In this document: positions 14,451-24,789 of the stretch, piece by piece
Numbering within the stretch: the stretch's first letter is position 1
Layout of the letters: each line of letters begins with the position of its first letter
Origin: Dehalococcoidia bacterium
GTDB lineage: Bacteria; Chloroflexota; Dehalococcoidia; Bin125
DNA length: 64,000 nt
NCBI GenBank assembly: GCA_965211635.1
Contig: OZ242948.1
Location: forward strand, 1,460,653 to 1,524,652
Reading direction: 5' to 3'
Program-made: the position numbers and the translations under genes
Notes under the pieces: generated by a model
Told to the model about the DNA's origin: nothing
The model's input: only the letters and a program-made list of their open reading frames with translations
Databases searched by the model: none

Positions 14451-17198
14451 TTAGTGCCCGGAAGGGATATTGGCGTCAAATCCCCAGGGCCTGGTGTCTC
14501 TTCCATCTTTGAGCGGTGGACTGATGAGCTCCACGCTTAGGTCGATCCCTTCTGGAATCCGAAAGTAGCGGACAGCCTCCATCGGCTCACCGCTCGGGTC
14601 ATAGCGCTTCCACCAGGAGCGGCCGTTGGAACGTAGCCCAACAACGTAGGCCCAGGCCTCCGATTGACGCTCCCACGTGGCAGTGACGGTCTGCTGCTTA
14701 CGCTCGATCGAGAGTTGTTGTGGTGGTCCGAGAGTAGTTACAGTCTGAGTCTTCGTCCAACGCAGGCGTTCGAGACTTCGATGCTGGGAGGATGGCTCGA
14801 ATCGAGCAAGTTGGTACTCATAAGACGTGACGGGCTTGAGCCCGTCCCACGTTCCACGACAGCGGAAATCTCCGTCCCGAGTTTGGCGTAGCTCCGTCGC
14901 GTAGTTCCAGTCGGCTGCGCCCAGCTCGCGCCAGCGAAGCGCCGTTGTGAAAGGCCAGTAGCGGCAGCTCCAACTCAACAGGACAACATGCCGATGGACG
15001 CTGCGCGCTGTGAGAGAGACACCGAAGGGGTCTTCTTCGGGGTCGGAAGCACCGTCCCACAACGTCGAAGGCCTGAACCAACCGACATGGGTATCACCAT
15101 TCGCGTCCATAACCGACACGTGCATATCGGCGGCAGTTCCGGGCGCATTGGTTCGGCAAGTGACGACGCTATGTCCGGAGCGCTCTTCTGTCTGGAAGCC
15201 CAACTGATCGCCCAGCGACACAGTGAACGGAGGCGCGCCGCCTCGGACGCCCCATAGGACCATGATGGGCGCTTGCTGAGCTGGAGGGCACGGGGAGAAC
15301 TCGGCTGTCACCCTGAGTTCAAGCGGGCTCCGCGCGTACCAACCATACCCGCCGCCACTGACTTCTCCATAGTTCACCGCGATCGCATCGACGGCCACCC
15401 AGTAGCTCTCGTCGTCCGGGTGAATGGGAATCGTTGCGCTGGTCACTTGCCCAACATCGACTACTTCGGCTTCTTCGTAGTTTCGGCGAACGTGGAGCCG
15501 ATACTCGAGAGCGACCTCGCTGTGCTCAGGTGGATCCCAGTGAATCTGCAGGGAGCCGGCTTGCTCCCAGATTCGAACGTTGCCCGGCGGGGTGACGACT
15601 GTGGGAATCCTTGCGGGGACTGACCACGGGGTCCACGCACCGTCTTGGAGCAGGCGTACTCGAAGAGACTGAGGAGCGGCGCCTGCATCCAGTTGAATCG
15701 TGAAGTCGCTGTCGCGGGATTCGCGGATGAAGGTGCGACCACGGGCCTGCCATGACAGCTCGGCCAACTCGGCGTCATTGGATTCCAAGTCGAATCTCCA
15801 AATGCCGGCGTAGATCCCGTAGTGACCGCCCGAGGTATCCACCCAGTGCAAGTCTACGAATGCAGGCGCCGCAGGCGGATCACCGGCGGTGAGCAGGTTT
15901 GGCTCATAGGTCGGCACGTGCATCTCTACCAGGCTGGTTCTCGGCGGCGCCGCGAGGGTGGACACTCGAATCTCAAGCGTGCCGCCCGGATGGTGCCAGG
16001 GCATCTGTAGCTGCGCGCGACTTTGACCCGCACTCACCTTCTCGCAGGACTGCTGCCACTGGAGCTCGAGCGAACGGGCGCAGACCCGAGTCTCGAAGCG
16101 AGATCCTACGGGAGGAGGTGTCCAGTTCACCTCCAGTTGCCTGTCTTCGACGGTCGCCTGTATGTCGGTCGGCGCCAAGATCAATGAAGACCATCCTTCA
16201 GGCGCCGGCTCTGTCCGTAACTCGAATCGATTGTGTTCCAAGGCGTATCCCCACTGATGACCTTGATCCAGATACACCCGTACGTGATAGAGGGTGTCGG
16301 GCAGGAGATCCTCAAAGCGCGCTTCAACGATCGGCTCGCCGCGAACTCCAAGCTCCAGCTCCGATCGATAGGGATATCCGGGCTGGACCGCGTAAAGCTC
16401 AGCAATGTAGCGTTGTCCGGATGTGTGCGGACCCCAGGTCAGCGTAATCGTGTCGTGTGTTGCTTCGGCCTGTAGTTCCCAGGGATGGTCAAGGATGGTC
16501 ACTGAAGTGGTCGGCGACCAGTTCAGCACCAATGGCGTCCGCAGGTCAAAGAGATGGCGAAGTTGGGCGGCCTGCAACTCGAGCCGCTCACCTCGATGTG
16601 TGAGCGCGGTTGTCCAGCGGGCGCTATCCGAGTCGTCGTTGGACCGTAGTCGGCGAAGGTGTTCGAGCGTCCACTCGGTGCTGCCCCTGACCCTCCAACG
16701 CAGTGCTATGTCGTCGGGACGCTGTCCCTCCGAAATCCCTGCAGTCCACCACCTTGCCCACAGGTACGCAGTGGAGGGCCCATATCCCTGATTAGAGACT
16801 TGAAGACGTACGGGAGCTGGCAGTCCCGGCACGAGCCGATGCTCCGAGGCGGCATAGGCGCGATTCCCCACCGAGTCGGTGACGCTGACGATTATCCTCT
16901 GGATGTCTTCGTTGCCGGGCGGTCCCGGACGGGTCCATCCTGCAGATGTTCGGCAAGGGATGTAGTGCGGGTCCGATGACTGCTCGACTGCCCGACCGTC
17001 GACGGTGAGCTGGTAGGGCGGTTGGCCTCCCTGGATGTCGTAGTCGAGCGTGGTGACGGAGCCGAGCGTGCAGGTCTCGCGGGTGGGCTGGACCGCAAGA
17101 CTCAAGGGTTCGGAGTCGTCAAGGCCGGCGACTGCGCCGCCGAGCAGTATCCACCAGGCAATCAGCGGCACAAAGGCTGCGGGCCAGCGACGTCGCAT
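14451..17198 (-). CDS. Large secreted/membrane-anchored protein with repeated beta-sandwich (FN3/Ig-like) modules
   Basis: N-terminal RRRW-hydrophobic anchor; 915 aa; repeated W..P..SG..Y.... blocks; no catalytic motif recognised. Confidence 0.55.
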   Translation of the reverse strand: MRRRWPAAFVPLIAWWILLGGAVAGLDDSEPLSLAVQPTRETCTLGSVTTLDYDIQGGQPPYQLTVDGRAVEQSSDPHYIPCRTSAGWTRPGPPGNEDIQRIIVSVTDSVGNRAYAASEHRLVPGLPAPVRLQVSNQGYGPSTAYLWARWWTAGISEGQRPDDIALRWRVRGSTEWTLEHLRRLRSNDDSDSARWTTALTHRGERLELQAAQLRHLFDLRTPLVLNWSPTTSVTILDHPWELQAEATHDTITLTWGPHTSGQRYIAELYAVQPGYPYRSELELGVRGEPIVEARFEDLLPDTLYHVRVYLDQGHQWGYALEHNRFELRTEPAPEGWSSLILAPTDIQATVEDRQLEVNWTPPPVGSRFETRVCARSLELQWQQSCEKVSAGQSRAQLQMPWHHPGGTLEIRVSTLAAPPRTSLVEMHVPTYEPNLLTAGDPPAAPAFVDLHWVDTSGGHYGIYAGIWRFDLESNDAELAELSWQARGRTFIRESRDSDFTIQLDAGAAPQSLRVRLLQDGAWTPWSVPARIPTVVTPPGNVRIWEQAGSLQIHWDPPEHSEVALEYRLHVRRNYEEAEVVDVGQVTSATIPIHPDDESYWVAVDAIAVNYGEVSGGGYGWYARSPLELRVTAEFSPCPPAQQAPIMVLWGVRGGAPPFTVSLGDQLGFQTEERSGHSVVTCRTNAPGTAADMHVSVMDANGDTHVGWFRPSTLWDGASDPEEDPFGVSLTARSVHRHVVLLSWSCRYWPFTTALRWRELGAADWNYATELRQTRDGDFRCRGTWDGLKPVTSYEYQLARFEPSSQHRSLERLRWTKTQTVTTLGPPQQLSIERKQQTVTATWERQSEAWAYVVGLRSNGRSWWKRYDPSGEPMEAVRYFRIPEGIDLSVELISPPLKDGRDTRPWGFDANIPSGH

Positions 17199-17237
17199 AC
17201 ATTCAGGACGCTCGCGGAGCCGACGAGGTTCCCTCGC

Positions 17238-18032
17238 TTACGCGGTCACTCCGGCTAGGGCGAAGTTGCGGACGAGGTCGGCGAGGGCGGCAGGGGCCTC
17301 GAGGTCGGCGATGTGACCACTGCCCGCGAGTTCGACCGACTGCGCTCCGGGAATTGCGGCTCGCCAGATGTCGCCCATCTCGTGCGCGACGACGTTGTCG
17401 TGCTCGGAGGTGGCGATCAGCGTGCGCGTGTCGATCCGCACCAGTCGGCGTCCGACGCCGGTGTCGGGGATCGGCCAGAGGAACTTGGCCGAGGCGCGCA
17501 GGTCGAGCAGCTCCTCGACGTACGCGTCCATCGGGTCACGGTCGGCCATCAGCAGCTCGTTGCGCTTCTCGGGGTCGCTGAACAGGACGGCGGTGGGGAA
17601 GCCGGGATGCTGTGCGAACGGGTCCTCGCCGGGATGGTTCTCGGACCAGAGGCCGAGCGGATTAACCAGGGTCAGCGACTGCACGGCGTCGGGCCTGATG
17701 GCTGCGATCTCCGCGCCGATCCATGCGCCGATGCTGACGCCGACGACGTGCGCCGAACCGACGCCCAGCGTATTGAGCAGGTCGACGTTGAAAAGCACGA
17801 GGTCGAGTCCGTCGCGCACGCCGGGCAGGTCGTCCTTGGCCGGACCCCAGCCGGGCTGGTAGGGCGCGATCACATGGAAGTCTGAGGCCAGCGACTCGAG
17901 CGCGTCGCCCCAGCGCGGGATGCCGGTGATCGGGTGGAGGAACAGCAGTGCCGGGGAGTCGGCGTCGCCGCCCTGCCAGACGTGAGCGGTCTGTCCGCCG
18001 GGGGTGAGGTCAAGGGTGCTCAGTTCTGCCAT
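17238..18032 (-). CDS. Alpha/beta hydrolase
   Basis: HVVGVSIGAWIG nucleophile elbow (GxSxG); ATG at 18032 overlaps the upstream stop (TGATG). Confidence 0.7.
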   Translation of the reverse strand: MAELSTLDLTPGGQTAHVWQGGDADSPALLFLHPITGIPRWGDALESLASDFHVIAPYQPGWGPAKDDLPGVRDGLDLVLFNVDLLNTLGVGSAHVVGVSIGAWIGAEIAAIRPDAVQSLTLVNPLGLWSENHPGEDPFAQHPGFPTAVLFSDPEKRNELLMADRDPMDAYVEELLDLRASAKFLWPIPDTGVGRRLVRIDTRTLIATSEHDNVVAHEMGDIWRAAIPGAQSVELAGSGHIADLEAPAALADLVRNFALAGVTA

Positions 18033-19279
18033 CAGTTCACTCCTGCGAGATCGCGCCCCGGGGCGCGTGATTGTTGCGTCGCTATCGGTCGCGGCGACCA
18101 GTGGTCCTCGTGATCTTCCCACAAGTGTCGCAGACGCGGGATTACCTGCTCAGCAAACAGGCGCGTGCTGCGCAGGGTGAGGTCGTGTGGCATGTCGCCG
18201 ACGTGGAAGACGCCGATCAGGTGTCCGGCGCGGAGCGTCTTGACGAGGTGCTCCAACTGCTCGGTCACGGTCTGGGGCGAGCCCGCGGCGAGCGAGCCGA
18301 CGTCGAGGCGTTCCTGCCACGTCGGGATGCGCGACGGCTGCGGATTGGCCAGTTCCTCCATCGTCTGCGCGGCGCGCTCGCGGATGCCGCGTTCGGTGCG
18401 CCAGCCCGGAGCTTCGGTCCAGCCGGGGAAGTCGTCCAGCGTGTGGCGGGAGGAATACTCGAAGTGCGGCTCGTAGCGCTGCTGCGCTTCGTCGTCCGTA
18501 TCGGCGACGACGATGGTCTGCGAGACCGCGCCCTGGTAGGGGTTGGGCTCGACGCCGTGGATCTCGATGCGCGACCAGAACCCGTCCATCGCCGATTGCG
18601 CCGGGGCGATGCCGCGGCTGGCGAGGCAGACGTAGTTGTACCCGCGCTCGGCGCAGAAGTCCCAGGTCTCGGAGGAGATGCCGTCGGCGGGAATCCAGAT
18701 CGGAGGGTGCGGACGCTGGATCGGCCGCGGCCAGATGTTGACGTAGCGCAACTTGTCCGAGTCGCCATTCCAGGCGAAGACGTCCGGGTCCTGCCAGGCG
18801 CGCAAGATCAGGTCGTGGTGCTCGCGGTAGACCGAGCGAAAGTCGGAGGGATTCGCGCCGTAGGCGAAGTTGGCGTCCATCGGCGTGCCCAACGGGAATC
18901 CAGCGACAATGCGCCCGCCGGAGAGGACATCGAGCATGGCGATCTCTTCGGCGGCGCGGGTCGCAGGACGGTAGAGCGCAATCGACATGCCCAACATGAT
19001 GATCGCGGCGCGCGTCGTGCGGCGCGCCAGGACGGCGGCCATGAGCTGCGGCGACGGCATCAGGCCGAAGACGTGCTGATGATGCTCGTTGAGCACCAGC
19101 CCGTCAAACCCTGCCAGCTCGGCAAACTCAAGCTGGTCGAGGTACTCGTGATACAACTGGTGACCCTCGACCGAGTCGTACAACCGAGAGTCGGCGTCGA
19201 CCCAGACGGATCGGTTGCGCTCACGGAAGTCGTCAGGCAAATGCGGCCACGGCATCCCATGAAACCAGTGGAACTTCAC
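18032..19279 (-). CDS. LLM-class flavin-dependent oxidoreductase
   Basis: MKFHWFHGMPWPH...NEHHQ; paralog of 19399-20634. Confidence 0.85.
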   Translation of the reverse strand: MKFHWFHGMPWPHLPDDFRERNRSVWVDADSRLYDSVEGHQLYHEYLDQLEFAELAGFDGLVLNEHHQHVFGLMPSPQLMAAVLARRTTRAAIIMLGMSIALYRPATRAAEEIAMLDVLSGGRIVAGFPLGTPMDANFAYGANPSDFRSVYREHHDLILRAWQDPDVFAWNGDSDKLRYVNIWPRPIQRPHPPIWIPADGISSETWDFCAERGYNYVCLASRGIAPAQSAMDGFWSRIEIHGVEPNPYQGAVSQTIVVADTDDEAQQRYEPHFEYSSRHTLDDFPGWTEAPGWRTERGIRERAAQTMEELANPQPSRIPTWQERLDVGSLAAGSPQTVTEQLEHLVKTLRAGHLIGVFHVGDMPHDLTLRSTRLFAEQVIPRLRHLWEDHEDHWSPRPIATQQSRAPGRDLAGVN

Positions 19280-19284
19280 GAAGT

Positions 19285-19398
19285 CACCCAGCTTTGCCTG
19301 GTTTCCCGCTCCCCCTGCAAGGGGGAGCGGGGAAGATTTGGCAGCTCCCGTGGAAGGAGGGAGCGGGATTTCTCTTACAGCCGTTGATGCGGCTTTGG
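19285..19398. repeat. Family B hairpin repeat (CTCCCCCTGCAAGGGGGAG variant)
   Basis: GCTCCCGCTCCCCCTGCAAGGGGGAGCGGGGAAG ... GGAGGGAGCGGG between the two LLM paralogs. Confidence 0.7.
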
Positions 19399-20634
19399 TC
19401 AGTTCGATCCTGTCAGCACCGGAGCTGGTGTCGCGACCTGCTCGGAGTCGATTGGCTTCGGCGACCAGTGGTCTTCGTAGTCTTCCCAGATGTGCTTGAC
19501 CCTGGGCATGACTTGCTCAGCGAAGAGCTTGGTCGAGGCTCGAGCCTTGTCGTCGGGCATGTCGCCGACGTGCAGCAGGCAGACCAGGTGGCCGACCTGC
19601 AGCTTGGTCGCCAGCGCTTCGATCTGCTCGGTTACCGAGTCGGGCGAGCCGGCCACGATGTAGCCCTCGCGCACCCAGTCGTCCCAGGACAGCGTGTGGG
19701 CGACGCCCAGACCCTGCGCGCCGCCGGCGCGGAGACCGGCGCGGATCGTGTTCTCGGTGCGGTAGCCCGGCGCGTCGGCGAAACCGGGGTAGACGTGCAG
19801 GCACTTGTCGAAGAAGTACTGCATGTGCTCGGTGTACATCTGCTCGGCCTGATCGTCGGTCTCGGCGACCACGATCTGCTGCGCGAACGCGCCCTGGAAC
19901 GGGTTGAAGTCGACGCCCAGCTCGCCCAGCCGGTTCCAGAAGCCCTGCATCAGCGCCTCGCCACGGACGTAGCCGTTGAACGACAGATACGAGTAGTTGT
20001 AGCCCATCTCGGCGCAGAAGTCCCAGGTCTCAACCGAGCCGCCGCCGGGAATCCAGATGGGCGGGGGCTGCTGGATCGGGCGCGGCCAGAGGTTGACGTA
20101 GCGAATCTTGTTGTACTCGCCGTTCCAGGAGAAGACCTCCGGGTCCTCCCAGGCGCGGCGGATCAGGTCGTGGTTCTCGCGGTACTTGTCACGCAGCGTG
20201 GCTGGGTTCGAGCCGAAGCAGAAGTTGTCGTCCATTGACGTGCCGACCGGGAATCCCGCGACCAGGCGGCCGCCCGACATCACGTCGAGCATCGCCATCT
20301 CTTCCGCCACACGGGTCGGCGGGTTGTACAGGGCGATCGACTGACCCAGCAGCAGCAGCGTCACGTCCTTGGTCCGACGCGCTAGCGACGCCGCCATGAT
20401 CTGCGGCGAGGGCATCATCCCGTAGGCGTTCTGGTGATGCTCGTTGACGCCAATCCCGTCGAAGCCCAGATTGGCCGCATACTCAAGCTGGTCGAGGTAC
20501 TCGTTGTACACCCGGTGCCCCTCGACCGGGTCGTAGAGCCGAGAGTCGACATCGACCCAGACGGAGCGATTCGTCTCGCGGAAATCGTCCGGCAGGTGAG
20601 GCCAGGGCATCAGGTTGAACCAGTGGAACTTCAT
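19399..20634 (-). CDS. LLM-class flavin-dependent oxidoreductase (paralog)
   Basis: MKFHWFNLMPWPH start at 20634 within the longer ORF; about 70% identical to 18032-19279. Confidence 0.85.
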   Translation of the reverse strand: MKFHWFNLMPWPHLPDDFRETNRSVWVDVDSRLYDPVEGHRVYNEYLDQLEYAANLGFDGIGVNEHHQNAYGMMPSPQIMAASLARRTKDVTLLLLGQSIALYNPPTRVAEEMAMLDVMSGGRLVAGFPVGTSMDDNFCFGSNPATLRDKYRENHDLIRRAWEDPEVFSWNGEYNKIRYVNLWPRPIQQPPPIWIPGGGSVETWDFCAEMGYNYSYLSFNGYVRGEALMQGFWNRLGELGVDFNPFQGAFAQQIVVAETDDQAEQMYTEHMQYFFDKCLHVYPGFADAPGYRTENTIRAGLRAGGAQGLGVAHTLSWDDWVREGYIVAGSPDSVTEQIEALATKLQVGHLVCLLHVGDMPDDKARASTKLFAEQVMPRVKHIWEDYEDHWSPKPIDSEQVATPAPVLTGSN

Positions 20635-20743
20635 GGGAAAACTCCTTGCGTCGGAGGCAGTCGCGGGTATCGAAGTCAGTGTAGACGGTGGCATGCCGAA
20701 TCAGGAGTAGACTCGAACGTGAGGTAGGGAGCGAGTTCGGTTC

Positions 20744-21061
20744 GTGAGCAAACCCATCAACGACGACATCCGATTCATGCTGGCGGGCGGGCCTCGCGTC
20801 CCCCGTCCCGAGGATCCCGACGCCTGGCGAGCGATCTGCGATTCCTACGAGCGCAACGAGGCCTGGTACGACGAGCACGTTGACGAGGTGTGGGCAGACC
20901 GAAGCGAGGCGTGGGTCGTGGTCTACGATGACGCGTGCCTCAGGGCCTCCAACGATCTGACTGGTTTGTTCAGGTGGCTCAGCGACCAGGAGCCGCTGAG
21001 TCGGATTGGCGCGTATGGTCCGGTGACCAGACCTGGACAAAACAGGGCCCTGATCCTTTGA
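20744..21061 (+). CDS. Hypothetical small protein (possible partner of the downstream protease)
   Basis: 105 aa with GTG start; W.VVYDD..L.AS.DL..L motif weakly reminiscent of DUF5678-like small proteins (low confidence). Confidence 0.35.
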   Translation: MSKPINDDIRFMLAGGPRVPRPEDPDAWRAICDSYERNEAWYDEHVDEVWADRSEAWVVVYDDACLRASNDLTGLFRWLSDQEPLSRIGAYGPVTRPGQNRALIL

Positions 21062-21120
21062 GCCGCACTGTCCAAGGTCACTTTCGTCAGACCCCAGGCG
21101 CGTCGTCCCTGGTCCCGGCC

Positions 21121-21540
21121 ATGCCCTTCGTCAACGTGCGCTTCCCGGGTACCACCGGAGAATTCGGGTACGAGTTCCTGATCGACACGGGCGCAGATTT
21201 CACCACTCTCAACCCGCGAGACGCCGTCGCCGTCCTCGGCGCCGGGTACTTCAACATCGACTTCGCCGATACCGTCCGGCAGATCAGGATGACCGGGATC
21301 GGCCAGGGCGATTCGGTTGGCCTGCTGTTTCCATCAGAGCTACAACTGCTGGCGTCCGATGGCGAGTGGATCAACGTCGAACTCCCAATCCTCATTCCGG
21401 AACCTATGCCGCGTGTCCCCGGAGATCATGGCAACTGGCAGCTTCCCTCACTCCTCGGCCGAGACATCCTCAGCCACTTCGACCTCGCCCTCTCCTACAA
21501 GCCGCCCGCGGTCTCGCTGACGGAGGCGGCGCTGGTGTGA
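21121..21540 (+). CDS. Retropepsin-like (clan AA) aspartic protease
   Basis: FLIDTGADFTTL (D-T-G-A active-site signature) followed by the GIGQG flap-like segment; about 139 aa single domain. Confidence 0.7.
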   Translation: MPFVNVRFPGTTGEFGYEFLIDTGADFTTLNPRDAVAVLGAGYFNIDFADTVRQIRMTGIGQGDSVGLLFPSELQLLASDGEWINVELPILIPEPMPRVPGDHGNWQLPSLLGRDILSHFDLALSYKPPAVSLTEAALV

Positions 21541-21577
21541 TAGGTTGGCTCGCTACGCTGACGATGGGAGCTAGCCA

Positions 21578-22129
21578 ATGACCATCAAGCAACCCCCCGA
21601 CGCCACTGCCCAGGAACTGCTGAGCGCAGCCCGCGAGCTGGCTTGGTCCGACGACGAATCCGCCGCCGTCGACGCCTACGACTGCGCCATCCGCGCAGTC
21701 GAGCAGGCATTCCGCAGCATCGCCACGCCCGACAACCCCACCGACGACCTCGGCGTGATCCTCAAGCACTGGCAAGACCGTCCCGACCTCTGGTGCGAGG
21801 GCTACTCCAGTGTCCTGGATATCGACACGGTCATGCCGGTGCTCGCTGATCTCTGGGAGAGACGACCGGAAGCGGATGAGGCCTTCCCTGTGTCTCTCGA
21901 AGACGCCCGCACTGCGCTGGTAATCGCCGAATGGATCCTGAAGCTGTTCGACCTGGGCTTCATTGAACTCCTGGACGAACTCACGCCTGAGGAAGAGGCG
22001 GCGGATCTAGCGTTGGCGGAACAGCGATCGCGGGAGCGCGAAGAACGCAAGCGTCTCGGGGTGGAGGAGGAGACCATCCCGTGGGAGGAAGTGGAAGAGC
22101 GTCTTGCCGCCCGGTGGCGTAAGGAATGA
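21578..22129 (+). CDS. Antitoxin-like protein: unknown N-terminal domain plus C-terminal CHP02574-like addiction-module component
   Basis: C-terminal ...EETIPWEEVEERL tail typical of RelE-partner antitoxins; GGGAG ribosome-binding site 7 nt before the ATG; ATGA overlap with the RelE gene. Confidence 0.5.
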   Translation: MTIKQPPDATAQELLSAARELAWSDDESAAVDAYDCAIRAVEQAFRSIATPDNPTDDLGVILKHWQDRPDLWCEGYSSVLDIDTVMPVLADLWERRPEADEAFPVSLEDARTALVIAEWILKLFDLGFIELLDELTPEEEAADLALAEQRSREREERKRLGVEEETIPWEEVEERLAARWRKE

Positions 22130-22404
22130 CAGACAGGTCGCGGCTGCCCTATCGGGTCGTCACAGAGCCGAGAGTTGAACGGCAGTTGGCGCGTCTCGAG
22201 AGGCGGGACCTTGCTTCAGTCAGGAAGAAGATTCGCGGCCTCGCCGTCGAGCCTCGTCCGCGGCGAGTGCTCCACCTCGGAGACAGTGAGTATCGTGTGC
22301 GCCAGGGCAACTGGCGCATCTTCTACGACATCAATGACGCCGAGCGAATCGTCACCATCACCGACGTCCTACGCCGAAACGAACGCACCTATCGTGATCG
22401 CTAG
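22126..22404 (+). CDS. RelE/ParE family toxin
   Basis: Y.V......L..L...........I..L...P......L.G....YRVRQGNWRIFYDI.D....V.I..V..R..Y pattern. Confidence 0.75.
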   Translation: MTDRSRLPYRVVTEPRVERQLARLERRDLASVRKKIRGLAVEPRPRRVLHLGDSEYRVRQGNWRIFYDINDAERIVTITDVLRRNERTYRDR

Positions 22405-22634
22405 CCGCGCGGCGGGAACGGGTCCTTTGCCGGAGGGATTGTGTTCTTCTGGCGAATCTGTCCCTGCTTGTTATGGGTAACCAGTTCGCCACCACCTTGC
22501 TTGGCCAAGCCTCGGCGAGCCGCTCGCTGAGCTGCCGCCTGGGTCCCGTGAACGCTCGACGCCCGCTGATTGCCCGCCTTCTTGTTTGCCCAACCATTGC
22601 CTCGGGGTGTCACGTGCCTAGCATTGCGAGCCAT
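22401..22634 (-). CDS. DUF2188 domain protein
   Basis: MARNARHVTPRGNGWANKKAGNQRASSVHGTQAAAQRAARRGLAKQGGGELVTH..GQIRQKNTIPPAKDPFPP matches the DUF2188 consensus nearly position by position. Confidence 0.6.
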   Translation of the reverse strand: MARNARHVTPRGNGWANKKAGNQRASSVHGTQAAAQRAARRGLAKQGGGELVTHNKQGQIRQKNTIPPAKDPFPPRG

Positions 22635-22683
22635 TTTCGACCCTTCATGTACTCGACGGCTTCGATTTCGATCAGCCGACTAT

Positions 22684-22989
22684 TCAGTTGTACCGAGATG
22701 AAACCCAGTTGTCAATCCTCGGTTCGCTTGTCCAACAACCGACCCACCAACTCCTCCACCCGCCGACCCTCCGGCGACTCCGACAGCCACTGGCGTATCT
22801 CCCGACGTGCGACCGTGACCGACGTGGATTGGCCGTTTTCCTCCCGCTCGGCCCGAATCTGGTCCCACAGAGCCTTCGCGCCGGCCGCAGCATCCTTACC
22901 AGCCTGGGCAATCTCGACGTGCAGCGAGTCGGAGTCGTCGTATCATTCGTTGGAACGGGGCGCGACTGCGCCGTAGGACTCTCCCTCAT
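22684..22989 (-). pseudogene. Small ORF disrupted by a +1 frameshift / in-frame TGA
   Basis: Frame A gives MRESPTAQSRPVPTND...; the adjacent frame gives a protein-like DDSDSLHVEIAQAGKDAAAGAKALWDQIRAEREENGQ...LDKRTED with no start of its own. Confidence 0.3.
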
Positions 22990-23009: not shown

Positions 23010-23615
23010 GTGCCGCTCTTTCGCCGAAATCCCGACGGGAACGCGTTCAATGAGCGACTCTCCTTGCCTTATGAGCTTAGGACTCAGGATTTCTCCCTTG
23101 TCATGCAGGACGTCTATGACTTCTTCTACGATGTGAACACTCATCTGCAGGGCAAGGGCATCAGGCGACTTGACGAAATGCTGCGACCAGCTGCAATGTC
23201 AGGCCTCATCTCCGACATGGTCTCGGCGAGTTTGGCTCGCCACTCACGAGTCTTGGTCGAGAATACCTATCACAACGGCCATCCGGACCTCATTGTTAAC
23301 GGAGTCTACCCGAACGACTCGGTCAAGTCCGGGTCGGAGGGCGTCGAGATCAAGACAACACGCAAACGCGGCGGCGCGGTTGATACTCACGGCGCACGCG
23401 ACCAATGGATGTGTGTGTTCGTCTACCAAGTCGACAACACTACGGAACCTGCCGTCGACAGAGCTCCAATGCGTTTCACAGAAATCTATCTTGGCCATGT
23501 GACGGTTGATGACTTTCGTCGGAATCCCCGCGGGGAGTTGGGAACGAGAACTGCGACCCTTGACAGATATGGCATTCGAAAGCTCCGCCAGAGCTGGGTG
23601 TACTTGGACACTTAA
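23010..23615 (+). CDS. Type II restriction endonuclease (PD-(D/E)xK)
   Basis: GHPDLIV...(20 aa)...EGVEIKT catalytic motif; lower GC (about 53%) than surroundings; convergent with and overlapping the MTase gene. Confidence 0.6.
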   Translation: MPLFRRNPDGNAFNERLSLPYELRTQDFSLVMQDVYDFFYDVNTHLQGKGIRRLDEMLRPAAMSGLISDMVSASLARHSRVLVENTYHNGHPDLIVNGVYPNDSVKSGSEGVEIKTTRKRGGAVDTHGARDQWMCVFVYQVDNTTEPAVDRAPMRFTEIYLGHVTVDDFRRNPRGELGTRTATLDRYGIRKLRQSWVYLDT

Positions 23616-24789
23616 TCTTCTCCAGTGCAGGAATAGCCGATTCGGCCACCTTCACATACCGGGAGTCGTGTTCTATGCCGACGCTACTGAACTCGAAGTG
23701 ATTGGCCGCCGCCAGAGTAGAGCCGGAGCCGGCAAACGGATCCAGGATGACGCCTTGCTCCATGGGCAGCGCCGCTCGAACCAGCTGCCTCAAGAACGCT
23801 TGTGGCTTCAACGACGGATGCGGCGCCAGTTCTTTCTCTTTGGGTCGCGTTGGACTCGATCTGATGACGTCGCCGAAAGGCCGTTGGTCCGACAACCTTC
23901 GTAAACCGCCTGTCCCCCAGGTCCTGAGGTTGTCTTGCACGCGGCCTTCCAGGGGCTTGCGAAACAGCAACCATGGTTCGGACATCGACCGGGGCATGAC
24001 AGTGACCTGCGAAAACTCATCATGGGCGTTCTTCGGGCGATCGCCACCGCGCATTGTCATCACGAGACGCGTCACAACCCCTCGGTTCTCGAGTCCCGAA
24101 CTCGCGAGGGCTGACGCGACCACATGCGACACCAGTGGATTGGAGGCGACGAACACATGGGCTCCAGGCACCAGCACTCTGGTTGCTTCGTGTCCAAGGC
24201 GATGAAAGAACTCACTCATGTATTGCAAGTCTGCGGCCTTTAGTGTCGTAAACCGAGGTACGGGCGACCTTTGGTGTCCATCAAACGATGGAGGGATTCT
24301 CCAAACACCGCCCTTGCCCTCGCGCAACTTCTGCTGCTCCGTCTCCGTGTACTCGACTAAGCCGTAAGGAGGGTCTGTGACTATCGCATGAAAGCTGTTC
24401 TCTGAGCAAGACCGGAACCACTCAAAGCAATCGGCTTGATACAGCGCTGCGCCTCCGTGTTCGAGTGTGGGAGCGTTGTAGTAGGCGACGGATTCCTCGA
24501 CAGATGGCCGGGCTCTCAAAGCGGTCCTCTTCAACCGATACAGACCATGCCCCGTTCTTTCAAATGTGTCGGGACGAAGCCGCAAGTACGACCGCACTGA
24601 GGACGCGGGTACGTGGCCAAGTTCTGCCTCAACGGCACTTCTGATCTCTGTCACGCTCGCATCTCCATACAGCCCGCCTAGGAAGCCGACTATCGCATCC
24701 CTGACGGTGCCTGGCGAGTGTTTGCGCTGTGTCACGCTGCGTCTCCTTGCGTCAGGGTTCAAGGTAGACGTCCAGACGTCAAAAGGCAA
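23476..24789 (-). CDS. Beta-class DNA methyltransferase (N4-C/N6-A) with N-terminal winged-helix-like extension
   Basis: Motif IV AIVTDPPYGL precedes motif I VILDPFAGSGSTLAAA (beta-class order); C-terminal tail overlaps the REase gene by about 140 nt. Confidence 0.8.
   Translation of the reverse strand: MPFDVWTSTLNPDARRRSVTQRKHSPGTVRDAIVGFLGGLYGDASVTEIRSAVEAELGHVPASSVRSYLRLRPDTFERTGHGLYRLKRTALRARPSVEESVAYYNAPTLEHGGAALYQADCFEWFRSCSENSFHAIVTDPPYGLVEYTETEQQKLREGKGGVWRIPPSFDGHQRSPVPRFTTLKAADLQYMSEFFHRLGHEATRVLVPGAHVFVASNPLVSHVVASALASSGLENRGVVTRLVMTMRGGDRPKNAHDEFSQVTVMPRSMSEPWLLFRKPLEGRVQDNLRTWGTGGLRRLSDQRPFGDVIRSSPTRPKEKELAPHPSLKPQAFLRQLVRAALPMEQGVILDPFAGSGSTLAAANHFEFSSVGIEHDSRYVKVAESAIPALEKIKCPSTPSSGGAFECHICQGSQFSFPTPRGDSDESHQPSHGQDRFL

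What the first reader, a model, noticed from the sequence alone, without database searches (positions are those of the whole stretch)
20744..21540. Two-gene module: small protein plus retropepsin-like (D-T-G-A) aspartic protease, adjacent to a RelE module
Seen in sequence: the 139-aa single-domain protein carries FLIDTGAD and a flap-like GIGQG segment, the clan AA retropepsin signature. It is preceded by 60 nt and by a 105-aa ORF of unknown function (GTG start) whose frame overlaps the longer upstream ORF.

Bacterial retropepsin-like single-domain proteases are poorly characterised. A compact pair of this kind next to toxin-antitoxin genes could be a toxin-antitoxin-like or protease-substrate module.
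Basis: partly seen in the sequence, partly recalled or inferred. Interest (0 to 1): 0.58.

Follow-up and report, generated by a model that had tools for sequence, protein, structure and literature searches.

The report
DUF5678 partner plus retropepsin-like protease operon
Two overlapping genes, a small DUF5678-type protein and a cytoplasmic HIV-protease-like aspartic protease, form an uncharacterised module that recurs as a pair, often in many copies, across Dehalococcoidia and other microbes and looks toxin-antitoxin-like, though its function is untested.

Summary

The protease most likely starts at TTG 21058 (160 aa), overlapping the ORF1 stop by 4 nt (TTGA). It is not an ATG start after a 60-nt gap.

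- **Pairing:** 79 of 80 related genomic loci have a DUF5678-like gene directly upstream, and 48 of 78 pairs show the same 4-nt overlap.
- **Copy number:** pairs are multi-copy per genome, sometimes in tandem arrays of 4-5.
- **Selection:** partners co-diverge, both genes are under purifying selection, and the catalytic Asp is never lost.
- **Allele swap:** a relative with 91-94% identical flanks carries a roughly 50% identical version at the same site.
- **ParE link:** the closest clade repeats a four-gene cluster, DUF5678-protease-ORF3 family-ParE.

The best reading is a partner-controlled (antitoxin-like inhibitor) cytoplasmic protease module. This is inferred, not shown. I found no literature on it.

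The parts
20744..21061 (+). ORF1: 105-aa DUF5678-family small protein, the partner gene. The conserved 55-aa core lies at about 20828-20986. The N-terminal ~24 residues are predicted disordered, and the C-terminus is hydrophobic (...ALIL).
   Evidence: GC3 0.77. dN/dS 0.14 against L085. Close homologs P0077-79. Iterative HMM links it to the upstream ORFs of 78 of 80 protease loci. 14 of 55 family members hit PF18929, and the profile search returns mostly PF18929 proteins. AF2 model pLDDT 67.6 with helix 25-50 followed by beta-beta-alpha-beta-beta.
21058..21540 (+). ORF2: 160-aa cytoplasmic retropepsin-like (clan AA) aspartic protease, with revised TTG start at 21058.
21058..21061 (+). TTGA start/stop overlap between ORF1 and the protease gene, a translational-coupling junction.
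   Evidence: Read from the sequence. The same 4-nt NTGA overlap occurs in 48 of 78 related pairs, and a 1-nt overlap in 8 more. Independent gene calls show it in L082-84, L086, L090 and L092.
21184..21195 (+). Catalytic D-T-G-A motif (D43-A46 of the 160-aa protein).
   Evidence: The Asp is present in all 104 family domains that cover the column: DTGA in 94, other D[TS]G[ASTC] in the rest. It aligns to the FIV protease DTGAD.
21295..21309 (+). Flap-like G-I-G-Q-G (residues 80-84).
   Evidence: Aligns to the GIGGG flap of FIV protease. G[VI]G occurs in 79 of 103 family domains.
21451..21465 (+). L-L-G-R-D motif, equivalent to the retropepsin hh-G-R-D/N helix motif.
   Evidence: GRD in 92 of 104 domains. 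L133, G134 and D136 are invariant. Aligns to LLGRD of FIV protease.
20700..21440 (+). Allelic block: all of ORF1 plus about the first three quarters of the protease gene. It is replaced by a ~50% identical version in a relative with near-identical flanks.
   Evidence: Window against L086: 0.88-0.95 nt identity in the LLM gene, 0.33-0.58 across 20726-21442, 0.93 at 21443-21502, then low again.
21578..22129 (+). ORF3: 183 aa, no Pfam family. It is the candidate antitoxin of the downstream ParE and lies 37 nt after the protease stop. It is linked to the pair only in the closest clade, so it is accessory rather than core.
   Evidence: Homologous to the C-terminal half of the 318-355-aa proteins that follow the protease in L089, L091, L085, L004 and L034 (E about 1e-22). 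An ORF3-family gene lies downstream of the pair in 12 loci (window included), nine of them also with ParE.
22126..22404 (+). ParE/RelE-superfamily toxin gene (92 aa) with a 4-nt ATGA overlap with ORF3. Accessory neighbour.
   Evidence: Pfam ParE_toxin E 3.3e-8. PHROG RelE-like E 6.9e-12. 44% identical to the ParE of L091 in the same arrangement.

Best explanation
**Shown.** The locus is a self-contained, translationally coupled two-gene operon. The first gene encodes a ~100-aa DUF5678-family protein. The second overlaps it by 4 nt and encodes a soluble, signal-peptide-less retropepsin-like aspartic protease. Both genes are real and under purifying selection. They are almost never separated. 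They are duplicated, diverge and are exchanged as a unit. All retropepsin catalytic and structural motifs are retained.

**Inferred.** Like all retropepsins, the protease probably needs to homodimerise to build its two-Asp active site. The DUF5678 protein is most likely the cognate binding partner that keeps this cytoplasmic protease in check. Translational coupling would ensure it is made first and in at least equal amount. It would act as an inhibitor or antitoxin-like partner, perhaps through its long helix or its conserved hydrophobic C-terminal strand ([W/L][I/L/V][L/V]-COOH) docking into the substrate cleft or the dimer interface. When the partner is lost or titrated, the protease would cleave cellular or invader targets.

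The many paralogous copies, and the co-variation of the partner with the N-terminal three quarters of the protease, would reflect insulation of cognate pairs from one another.

The confidence given (0.4) is for the inferred inhibitor/effector mechanism. That the two genes form a conserved DUF5678 plus retropepsin-like protease pair is about 0.95.
For: - **Pairing:** 79 of 80 GTDB loci found with the protease have a DUF5678-like ORF directly upstream on the same strand.
- **Independent gene calls:** these show the same pair starting from canonical PF18929 proteins.
- **Junction:** a 4-nt NTGA overlap in 48 of 78 pairs and a 1-nt overlap in 8; TTGA in the window.
- **Separate polypeptides:** no fusion appears among the best 150 of 546 protease clusters with E <= 1e-10.
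- **Active enzyme under selection:** the catalytic Asp is present in 104 of 104 domains and GRD in 92 of 104. dN/dS is 0.17 for the protease and 0.14 for the partner.
- **TA-like population behaviour:** several loci per genome and tandem arrays of 4-5 pairs in L012, L017, L018, L063 and L087. Some proteases are split while the partner stays intact.
- **Co-divergence:** r = 0.77, Mantel 0 of 2000, nearest-neighbour concordance 79 of 96.
- **Allele swap:** the pair is replaced between genomes with 91-94% identical flanks.
- **Context:** insertion next to unrelated housekeeping genes. The closest clade sits beside a ParE module and type IIG restriction-modification genes.
- **Partner C-terminus:** a conserved hydrophobic end, with -IL in 33 of 108.
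Against: - No experiment or complex model was possible. Inhibition, toxicity and binding are all inferred.
- Neither protein matches PADLOC defence models or PHROGs. The protease family is almost absent from viral contigs (1 locus), so mobility is not evident.
- At one genomic site (LLM...rhomboid) the pair is retained across diverged genomes. That could equally suit a housekeeping role.
- Co-divergence is expected for any two tightly linked genes.
- The excess of split proteases over lost partners (about 8 to 2) is not significant, given gene lengths and possible long-read frameshift errors.
Confidence: 0.4

Rival explanations
1. Protease-substrate or pro-protein module. The DUF5678 protein is the dedicated substrate. 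The protease cleaves off its disordered, variable N-terminal region or its C-terminal tail to activate or release it, analogous to gasdermin-protease or precursor-peptidase pairs.
For: The pairing is strict and the partners co-diverge. About 24 N-terminal residues are predicted disordered and vary in length and sequence across the family. Dedicated protease genes often sit downstream of their substrate. No antitoxin-type fold was found in the partner.
Against: No conserved cleavage-site motif is evident. The conserved parts are the folded core and the extreme C-terminus, not a linker. The 55-aa core resembles no known effector. Double-DUF5678 ORFs (L004, L034, L089, L091) are not obviously precursor-like.
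Confidence: 0.22
2. Four-gene system. In this clade the protease is a dedicated regulator of the adjacent ParE module, for example by cleaving the large ORF3-family antitoxin to release ParE, with DUF5678 as its sensor or inhibitor.
For: The cluster DUF5678-protease-(6-38 nt)-ORF3 family-(4-nt overlap)-ParE recurs in 9 loci from different genomes, including the window. No terminator-like site was found between the genes in the window. The ORF3-family antitoxin candidate is unusually large (178-355 aa) and has no known family.
Against: Most pairs lack ParE and ORF3 and sit next to unrelated genes (at least 60 of 80 loci, and all tandem arrays). Syntenic relatives L085, L086 and L090 have the pair without ParE. 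TA modules commonly cluster in islands without functional coupling.
Confidence: 0.08
3. Housekeeping regulatory protease with an assembly or specificity factor. DUF5678 would be a chaperone or adaptor that promotes folding, dimerisation or substrate delivery of a non-toxic cytoplasmic protease. The analogy is RimB working with RimA and RimK.
For: The pair is retained at the same chromosomal site across diverged genomes. Both genes are under purifying selection. It is chromosomal and essentially absent from viral contigs. Known bacterial cytoplasmic retropepsin-like RimB acts in a multi-protein complex (PMC11957791).
Against: About 9 or more paralogous pairs per ~3.3-Mb genome, tandem arrays, pseudogenised copies and allelic replacement between near-identical strains are unusual for a housekeeping function. 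Distribution across phyla is patchy.
Confidence: 0.2
4. ORF1 is a spurious ORF, and the protease is a solitary gene starting at the ATG.
For: The window ORF1 has no direct Pfam or NCBIfam hit. The word-based search found only three close homologs.
Against: GC3 is 0.77 and dN/dS is 0.14. Profile homology links it to DUF5678 proteins. It is present upstream of the protease in 79 of 80 loci.
Confidence: 0.01

Closest known systems
Retroviral proteases (MEROPS family A2; FIV, EIAV, HIV-1, RSV)
   Different: It is a free-standing prokaryotic gene, not part of a Gag-Pol polyprotein or retroelement. It has a ~21-residue N-terminal extension and a family-specific P-G-D-H-G-N-W insertion before LLGRD. 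It is paired with a DUF5678 gene.
APRc (RC1339) of Rickettsia conorii, a bacterial retropepsin-like protease (PDB 5c9b/5c9f; PMC4140852)
   Different: Only 15% identity. APRc is membrane-embedded and acts at the cell surface (PMC4140852). The window protein has no signal peptide or transmembrane segment and has a dedicated upstream partner gene.
RimB and RloA retropepsin-like peptidases of Pseudomonas (PMC11957791, PMC12239564)
   Same: Bacterial retropepsin-like enzymes that work within operons with partner proteins. RimB is cytoplasmic.
Prokaryotic single-domain clan AA peptidases COG5550/TIGR03698 (AF_0612 family) and COG3577/TIGR02281
   Same: Small stand-alone predicted aspartyl proteases of bacteria and archaea (PMC2642776). 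There are weak sub-threshold hits: TIGR03698 at E 0.0096 for the window protein, and 6-7 of 37 family members at E about 1e-3.
   Different: All scores are far below the curated cut-offs (16 bits against 57). This clade is therefore not covered by those models.
Type II toxin-antitoxin modules (for example the neighbouring ORF3-ParE pair)
   Same: Two small co-directional genes with a 4-nt overlap and the smaller gene first. Multi-copy, patchy distribution, co-divergence of partners, and location beside other TA and restriction-modification genes.
   Different: No known toxin or antitoxin family is involved. There is no DNA-binding fold in the upstream protein. Toxicity and neutralisation are untested. 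I know of no described TA toxin that is an aspartic protease (my own knowledge), and searches of the held literature found none.
Sulfolobales CRISPR-associated small retropepsin-domain protein (Asp_prot, Saci_1895; PMC3973734)
   Same: A ~100-aa stand-alone prokaryotic retropepsin-domain protein found in a defence-gene context.
   Different: No sequence comparison was made here. That association is with type III CRISPR loci, and no DUF5678 partner is reported.

Membership tests
Clan AA retropepsin-like aspartic peptidases | Catalytic hydrophobic-hydrophobic-D-T/S-G-A motif | tested here: met
   FLIDTGAD at 21172-21198. The Asp is present in 104 of 104 family domains. It aligns to the FIV protease active site.
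Clan AA retropepsin-like aspartic peptidases | Gly-rich flap hairpin and the hh-G-R-D/N motif | tested here: met
   GIGQG aligns to GIGGG, and LLGRD aligns to LLGRD of FIV protease. Conservation is shown.
Clan AA retropepsin-like aspartic peptidases | Retropepsin fold | tested here: met
Clan AA retropepsin-like aspartic peptidases | Score above the curated Pfam thresholds (RVP, Asp_protease_2, gag-asp_proteas) | tested here: not met
   The window protein scores 16.5-16.9 bits against cut-offs of 20.7-28.2. 25 of 37 family members hit at best E about 1e-6. Homology rests on the profile-to-PDB search and the fold.
Clan AA retropepsin-like aspartic peptidases | Homodimer with one Asp per subunit; pepstatin-sensitive proteolysis | not testable with these tools
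   No multimer prediction or biochemistry was available.
Pfam PF18929 (DUF5678) | Direct match of the window ORF1 to the PF18929 model | tested here: not met
   No Pfam family at E <= 1.
Pfam PF18929 (DUF5678) | Homology through intermediate sequences or a profile | tested here: met
   The iterative HMM from ORF1 recruits one upstream ORF in each of 78 of the 80 loci. 14 of 55 aligned members hit PF18929, best E 7.6e-9. The profile search returns 80 proteins, most pre-annotated as PF18929.
Type II toxin-antitoxin system | Adjacent, co-directional, overlapping small genes forming a conserved pair | tested here: met
Type II toxin-antitoxin system | Antitoxin with a DNA-binding domain (RHH, HTH, AbrB or Phd) for autoregulation | tested here: not met
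Type II toxin-antitoxin system | Toxin arrests growth and the cognate antitoxin neutralises it by direct binding | not testable with these tools
   Requires expression and binding experiments.
Type II toxin-antitoxin system | Multi-copy, patchy, horizontally shuffled distribution | tested here: met
   There are several loci per genome and tandem arrays. The pair occurs in Chloroflexota, Latescibacterota, Alphaproteobacteria and archaea. An allele swap is seen between close relatives. However, only 1 viral contig carries it.
NCBIfam TIGR03698 / TIGR02281 clan AA proteases | Score above the curated cut-off | tested here: not met
   16.2 bits against a cut-off of 57.35. Family members reach at best E about 1e-3.
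Known anti-phage defence systems (PADLOC-DB v2) | Match to any defence-system protein model | tested here: not met
   No hit for either protein or for two other partner proteins.

The most novel reading that the evidence does not exclude
The DUF5678/retropepsin-like pair is a new class of toxin-antitoxin-like or conflict module. Its effector is a cytoplasmic aspartic protease held inactive by a cognate small inhibitor. It has diversified into insulated paralogous pairs, as tandem arrays and as exchangeable allelic cassettes, in Dehalococcoidia and scattered bacteria and archaea. It would be the first TA-type system with a retropepsin-like toxin, and a free-living prokaryotic counterpart of regulated retroviral protease activation.
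Probability: 0.3. Interest if true: 0.8.

Novelty: new variant of a known kind. Interest (0 to 1): 0.62.

Why it matters
Prokaryotic retropepsin-like proteases are barely studied. The few characterised ones are APRc, RimB, RloA, SpoIIGA and PerP (SpoIIGA and PerP named from my own knowledge), and none has a DUF5678 partner in the papers I read.

This work gives DUF5678, a family with no known function, a specific and testable context. It is the obligate, translationally coupled partner of a cytoplasmic aspartic protease. The protease family spans at least 546 clusters at 50% identity with E <= 1e-10.

If the partner is an inhibitor, the module would add a new enzymatic class to toxin-antitoxin and conflict systems. 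It would also provide natural protein inhibitors of retropepsin-type proteases. If the partner is a substrate, it defines a new dedicated processing pathway.

Either way, the high copy number and strain-level allele swapping in Dehalococcoidia suggest ongoing selection on pair specificity. The Dehalococcoidia MAGs include what appear, from their record names only, to be sponge-associated lineages.

Tried and rejected
- **Direct family scans.** Pfam and NCBIfam scans of the window ORF1 gave nothing. The single-sequence word-indexed search found only 3 close homologs. Homology appeared only after collecting the ORFs upstream of protease homologs.
- **Locus search.** A 15-sequence alignment worked.
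- **Defence and phage libraries.** PADLOC and PHROGs gave no hits for the pair. The viral contig scan found 1 weak locus, so a phage-borne origin was rejected.
- **Regulatory signals.** The promoter and terminator scan of 20400-22700 found nothing, so it says nothing about operon boundaries.
- **Fusions.** None of the best 150 representative proteins is a DUF5678-protease fusion.
- **ParE adjacency.** I first judged it incidental, from L085 and L086. I revised that after finding the four-gene cluster in 9 loci.
- **Pseudogene asymmetry.** The excess of split proteases over lost partners was considered too weak to use as evidence, because of small numbers and possible assembly frameshifts.
- **Literature.** Searches for DUF5678, for retropepsin-like with antitoxin, and for the Pfam accessions returned nothing relevant.

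Full report
**1. What is in the window**

The region holds four co-directional ORFs on the + strand:
- ORF1, 20744-21061 (GTG start, 105 aa);
- a protease ORF ending at 21540;
- ORF3, 21578-22129 (183 aa);
- a 92-aa ORF, 22126-22404.

Upstream, on the minus strand, lie two luciferase-like monooxygenase genes. Downstream lie a DUF2188 gene, a 201-aa ORF and an N6/N4 DNA methyltransferase.

ORF1 and the protease both have coding-type composition for this 65% GC sequence: GC3 is 0.77 and 0.79, and GC2 is 0.48 and 0.43. Against the orthologous pair in locus L085, dN/dS is 0.14 for ORF1 and 0.17 for the protease. Both are therefore real genes under purifying selection.

**2. The protease and its true start**

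The window protein is below every curated threshold: RVP scores 16.9 bits against a cut-off of 20.7, and TIGR03698 scores 16.2 against 57. Its identity is nevertheless secure.
- A profile of 37 family members hits FIV retropepsin at E 6e-7 over residues 39-146. It aligns DTGAD, the GIGGG flap and LLGRD.
- The AF2 model is confident (pLDDT 91.6).

Across 114 family domains found in related loci, the catalytic Asp is present in all 104 that cover the motif, and GRD in 92 of 104.

- Homologs are mostly 157-164 aa and have a conserved N-terminal MxRxxxGxF segment.
- The window encodes that segment in frame (LSRTVQGHFR...) upstream of the ATG at 21121.
- The only start codon at the right place is TTG 21058, giving 160 aa.
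- This TTG overlaps the ORF1 stop (TTGA, 21058-21061).
- In L085 the equivalent start is an ATG 9 nt further upstream, giving MDSLGR....

There is no signal peptide or membrane segment in the sequence, so the enzyme is predicted to be cytoplasmic.

**3. ORF1 is a DUF5678 protein and the pairing is near-universal**

A scan of one genome per GTDB species with the protease alignment returned 80 loci. Almost all are Dehalococcoidia or Chloroflexota MAGs. A few come from Latescibacterota, Alphaproteobacteria, Nitrosopumilaceae and Methanotrichaceae.
- I extracted every + strand ORF ending near the protease start and iterated an HMM from the window ORF1. It converged on exactly one ORF per locus in 78 of 80 loci, sharing a 55-aa core (window residues 29-81).
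- L053 has a divergent copy that the HMM missed.
- Only the L029 protease lacks a partner.
- 14 of 55 aligned partners hit Pfam PF18929 (DUF5678), with best E 7.6e-9.
- A profile search of the 5.8-billion-protein collection returned 80 proteins, most already annotated as PF18929.

Independent gene calls that start from canonical DUF5678 proteins show the protease immediately downstream (P0082, P0128, P0134 and P0137). The one exception is P0141 in L094, which is followed by an MNT-type nucleotidyltransferase.

The junction is a 4-nt NTGA overlap in 48 of 78 pairs and a 1-nt overlap in 8 more. No DUF5678-protease fusion appears among the best 150 of the representative-cluster hits. All are 85-220 aa. 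There are 546 clusters at E <= 1e-10 and 2023 at E <= 1e-3.

**4. Population behaviour**

Many genomes contribute several loci, and some loci hold tandem arrays.
- L012, L018 and L063 each have four pairs.
- L017 has four pairs plus an extra DUF5678.
- L087 has five small-plus-protease pairs.
- L004, L034, L089 and L091 have ORFs with two DUF5678 domains.

Assembly OZ251457.1 alone shows at least 9 pairs in the retrieved loci. Some proteases are split while the partner is intact (L037, L074, L066, L034).

Partner and protease distances correlate at r = 0.77. No Mantel permutation out of 2000 reached that value, and nearest-neighbour concordance is 79 of 96. The pair is therefore duplicated and inherited as a unit, although linkage alone predicts this.

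The most striking result comes from L086, a 2.87-Mb contig that shares the window's flanks: fn3 protein, hydrolase, LLM, LLM | pair | variable segment | rhomboid, SDR.
- The flanks are 91-94% identical at the nucleotide level.
- Identity collapses to 0.33-0.58 from about 20726 to 21442, which covers all of ORF1 and about three quarters of the protease.
- It returns to 0.93 for 21443-21502.
- It then drops again in the downstream variable segment.

L085 carries the window-type allele (87% amino-acid identity) and L090 carries another divergent allele at the same site. The module is thus an exchangeable cassette, or a fast-diversifying one, at a fixed chromosomal site.

**5. Context**

Across the 79 loci for which a flanking ORF could be called, the gene just downstream of the pair or array is heterogeneous and mostly housekeeping. 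Examples are a DNA alkylation repair enzyme (10 loci), acyl-CoA dehydrogenases and H+-PPase. A few are defence or TA genes (DarT in 2 loci, HSDR_N, an antidote protein). The pair is therefore autonomous.

In the clade closest to the window, however, a four-gene cluster recurs: DUF5678-protease-(6-38 nt)-ORF3 family-(4-nt overlap)-ParE.
- It is found in the window, L001, L002, L004, L005, L006, L010, L034 and L091.
- A type IIG restriction-modification gene lies nearby in 21 loci.
- The window ORF3 is a short member of a 178-355-aa family that has no Pfam match.
- The window keeps only a 76-aa remnant of the type IIG enzyme (22715-22942, minus strand, E 4e-38). It has a different methyltransferase plus a 201-aa ORF instead.

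The pair has no PADLOC or PHROG match and is essentially absent from 2.9 million viral contigs.

**6. The partner protein**

**7. Mechanism**

Shown: this is an obligate, translationally coupled pair of a DUF5678 protein and a catalytically intact, cytoplasmic retropepsin-like protease. It is multi-copy, co-diverging and strain-variable.

Inferred, from established retropepsin biochemistry: activity needs a homodimer with one Asp per subunit. An unregulated cytoplasmic protease would be harmful. My preferred model is that the DUF5678 protein is a cognate inhibitor, antitoxin-like, acting at the cleft or the dimer interface. I give this about 0.4 confidence.

Rivals are:
- a dedicated substrate or pro-protein (0.22);
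- a housekeeping adaptor or chaperone (0.2);
- functional coupling to the ORF3-ParE module (0.08).

Against a classical type II TA system, there is no DNA-binding fold, no known toxin family and little sign of mobility.

**8. Comparison with what is known, and novelty**

The closest known enzymes are:
- APRc, the best structural match;
- retroviral proteases, matched by both sequence profile and fold;
- RimB and RloA, bacterial operon-embedded retropepsin-like enzymes (PMC11957791, PMC12239564);
- the unstudied COG5550/COG3577 groups (PMC2642776);
- a small retropepsin-domain protein noted near Sulfolobales type III CRISPR loci (PMC3973734).

None of the papers I read mentions a DUF5678 partner. 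Full-text searches found no paper on DUF5678 function and none linking retropepsin-like proteases to antitoxins.

I rate this a new variant of a known kind: a TA-like two-gene module built from components not previously described in that role. Interest is moderate to high, because the hypothesis is sharp and cheaply testable. The function remains unproven.

Noticed in passing
window 21578-22404 (+); also L001, L002, L004, L005, L006, L010, L034, L091: ParE (92 aa) is preceded, with a 4-nt overlap, by an uncharacterised 178-355-aa protein family (window ORF3 = 183 aa). The family has no Pfam match apart from a weak sub-threshold DUF6757 hit. It is probably an atypical, large ParE antitoxin. The window version corresponds to the C-terminal half of the longer forms.
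   Followed up: partly
window 22715-22942 (-): A 76-aa remnant of the C-terminus of a ~1035-aa type IIG restriction-modification enzyme (E 4e-38; about 92% nt identity to L086). Syntenic relatives keep the full gene. The segment between the protease and the rhomboid gene is therefore a restriction-modification and TA turnover hotspot.
   Followed up: partly
window 23010-23615 (+) and 23476-24789 (-): A 201-aa ORF with a weak type II restriction-enzyme hit (PADLOC REase_II, E 0.0034) converges on an N6_N4 methyltransferase gene and overlaps it by about 140 nt. This is probably a replacement restriction-modification system. Both genes have lower GC (0.55-0.58) than the surroundings, which suggests recent acquisition.
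   Followed up: no
window 22401-22634 (-): A DUF2188 gene (E 7.7e-21) converges on ParE, and its 3' end overlaps the end of ParE by 4 nt.
   Followed up: no
L012, L017, L018, L063, L087 (arrays); L004, L034, L089, L091 (double-domain ORFs): There are tandem arrays of 4-5 DUF5678+protease pairs, and partner ORFs with two DUF5678 domains in one ~200-aa protein. Several array members have split (frameshifted or pseudogenised) protease genes.
   Followed up: partly
L094 2501-3160: A canonical DUF5678 gene (P0141) is followed, after 33 nt, by an NTP_transf_2/Polbeta (MNT-like) nucleotidyltransferase instead of a protease. This may be a partner swap hinting that DUF5678 can join other TA-type partners, or it may be a local rearrangement.
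   Followed up: no
window 14451-20694 (-): A conserved block upstream of the pair holds a 915-aa fn3-like repeat protein, an alpha/beta hydrolase and two paralogous luciferase-like monooxygenases. It is 91-94% identical to a 2.87-Mb metagenomic contig (L086). This places the window in a Dehalococcoidia-type genome.
   Followed up: partly
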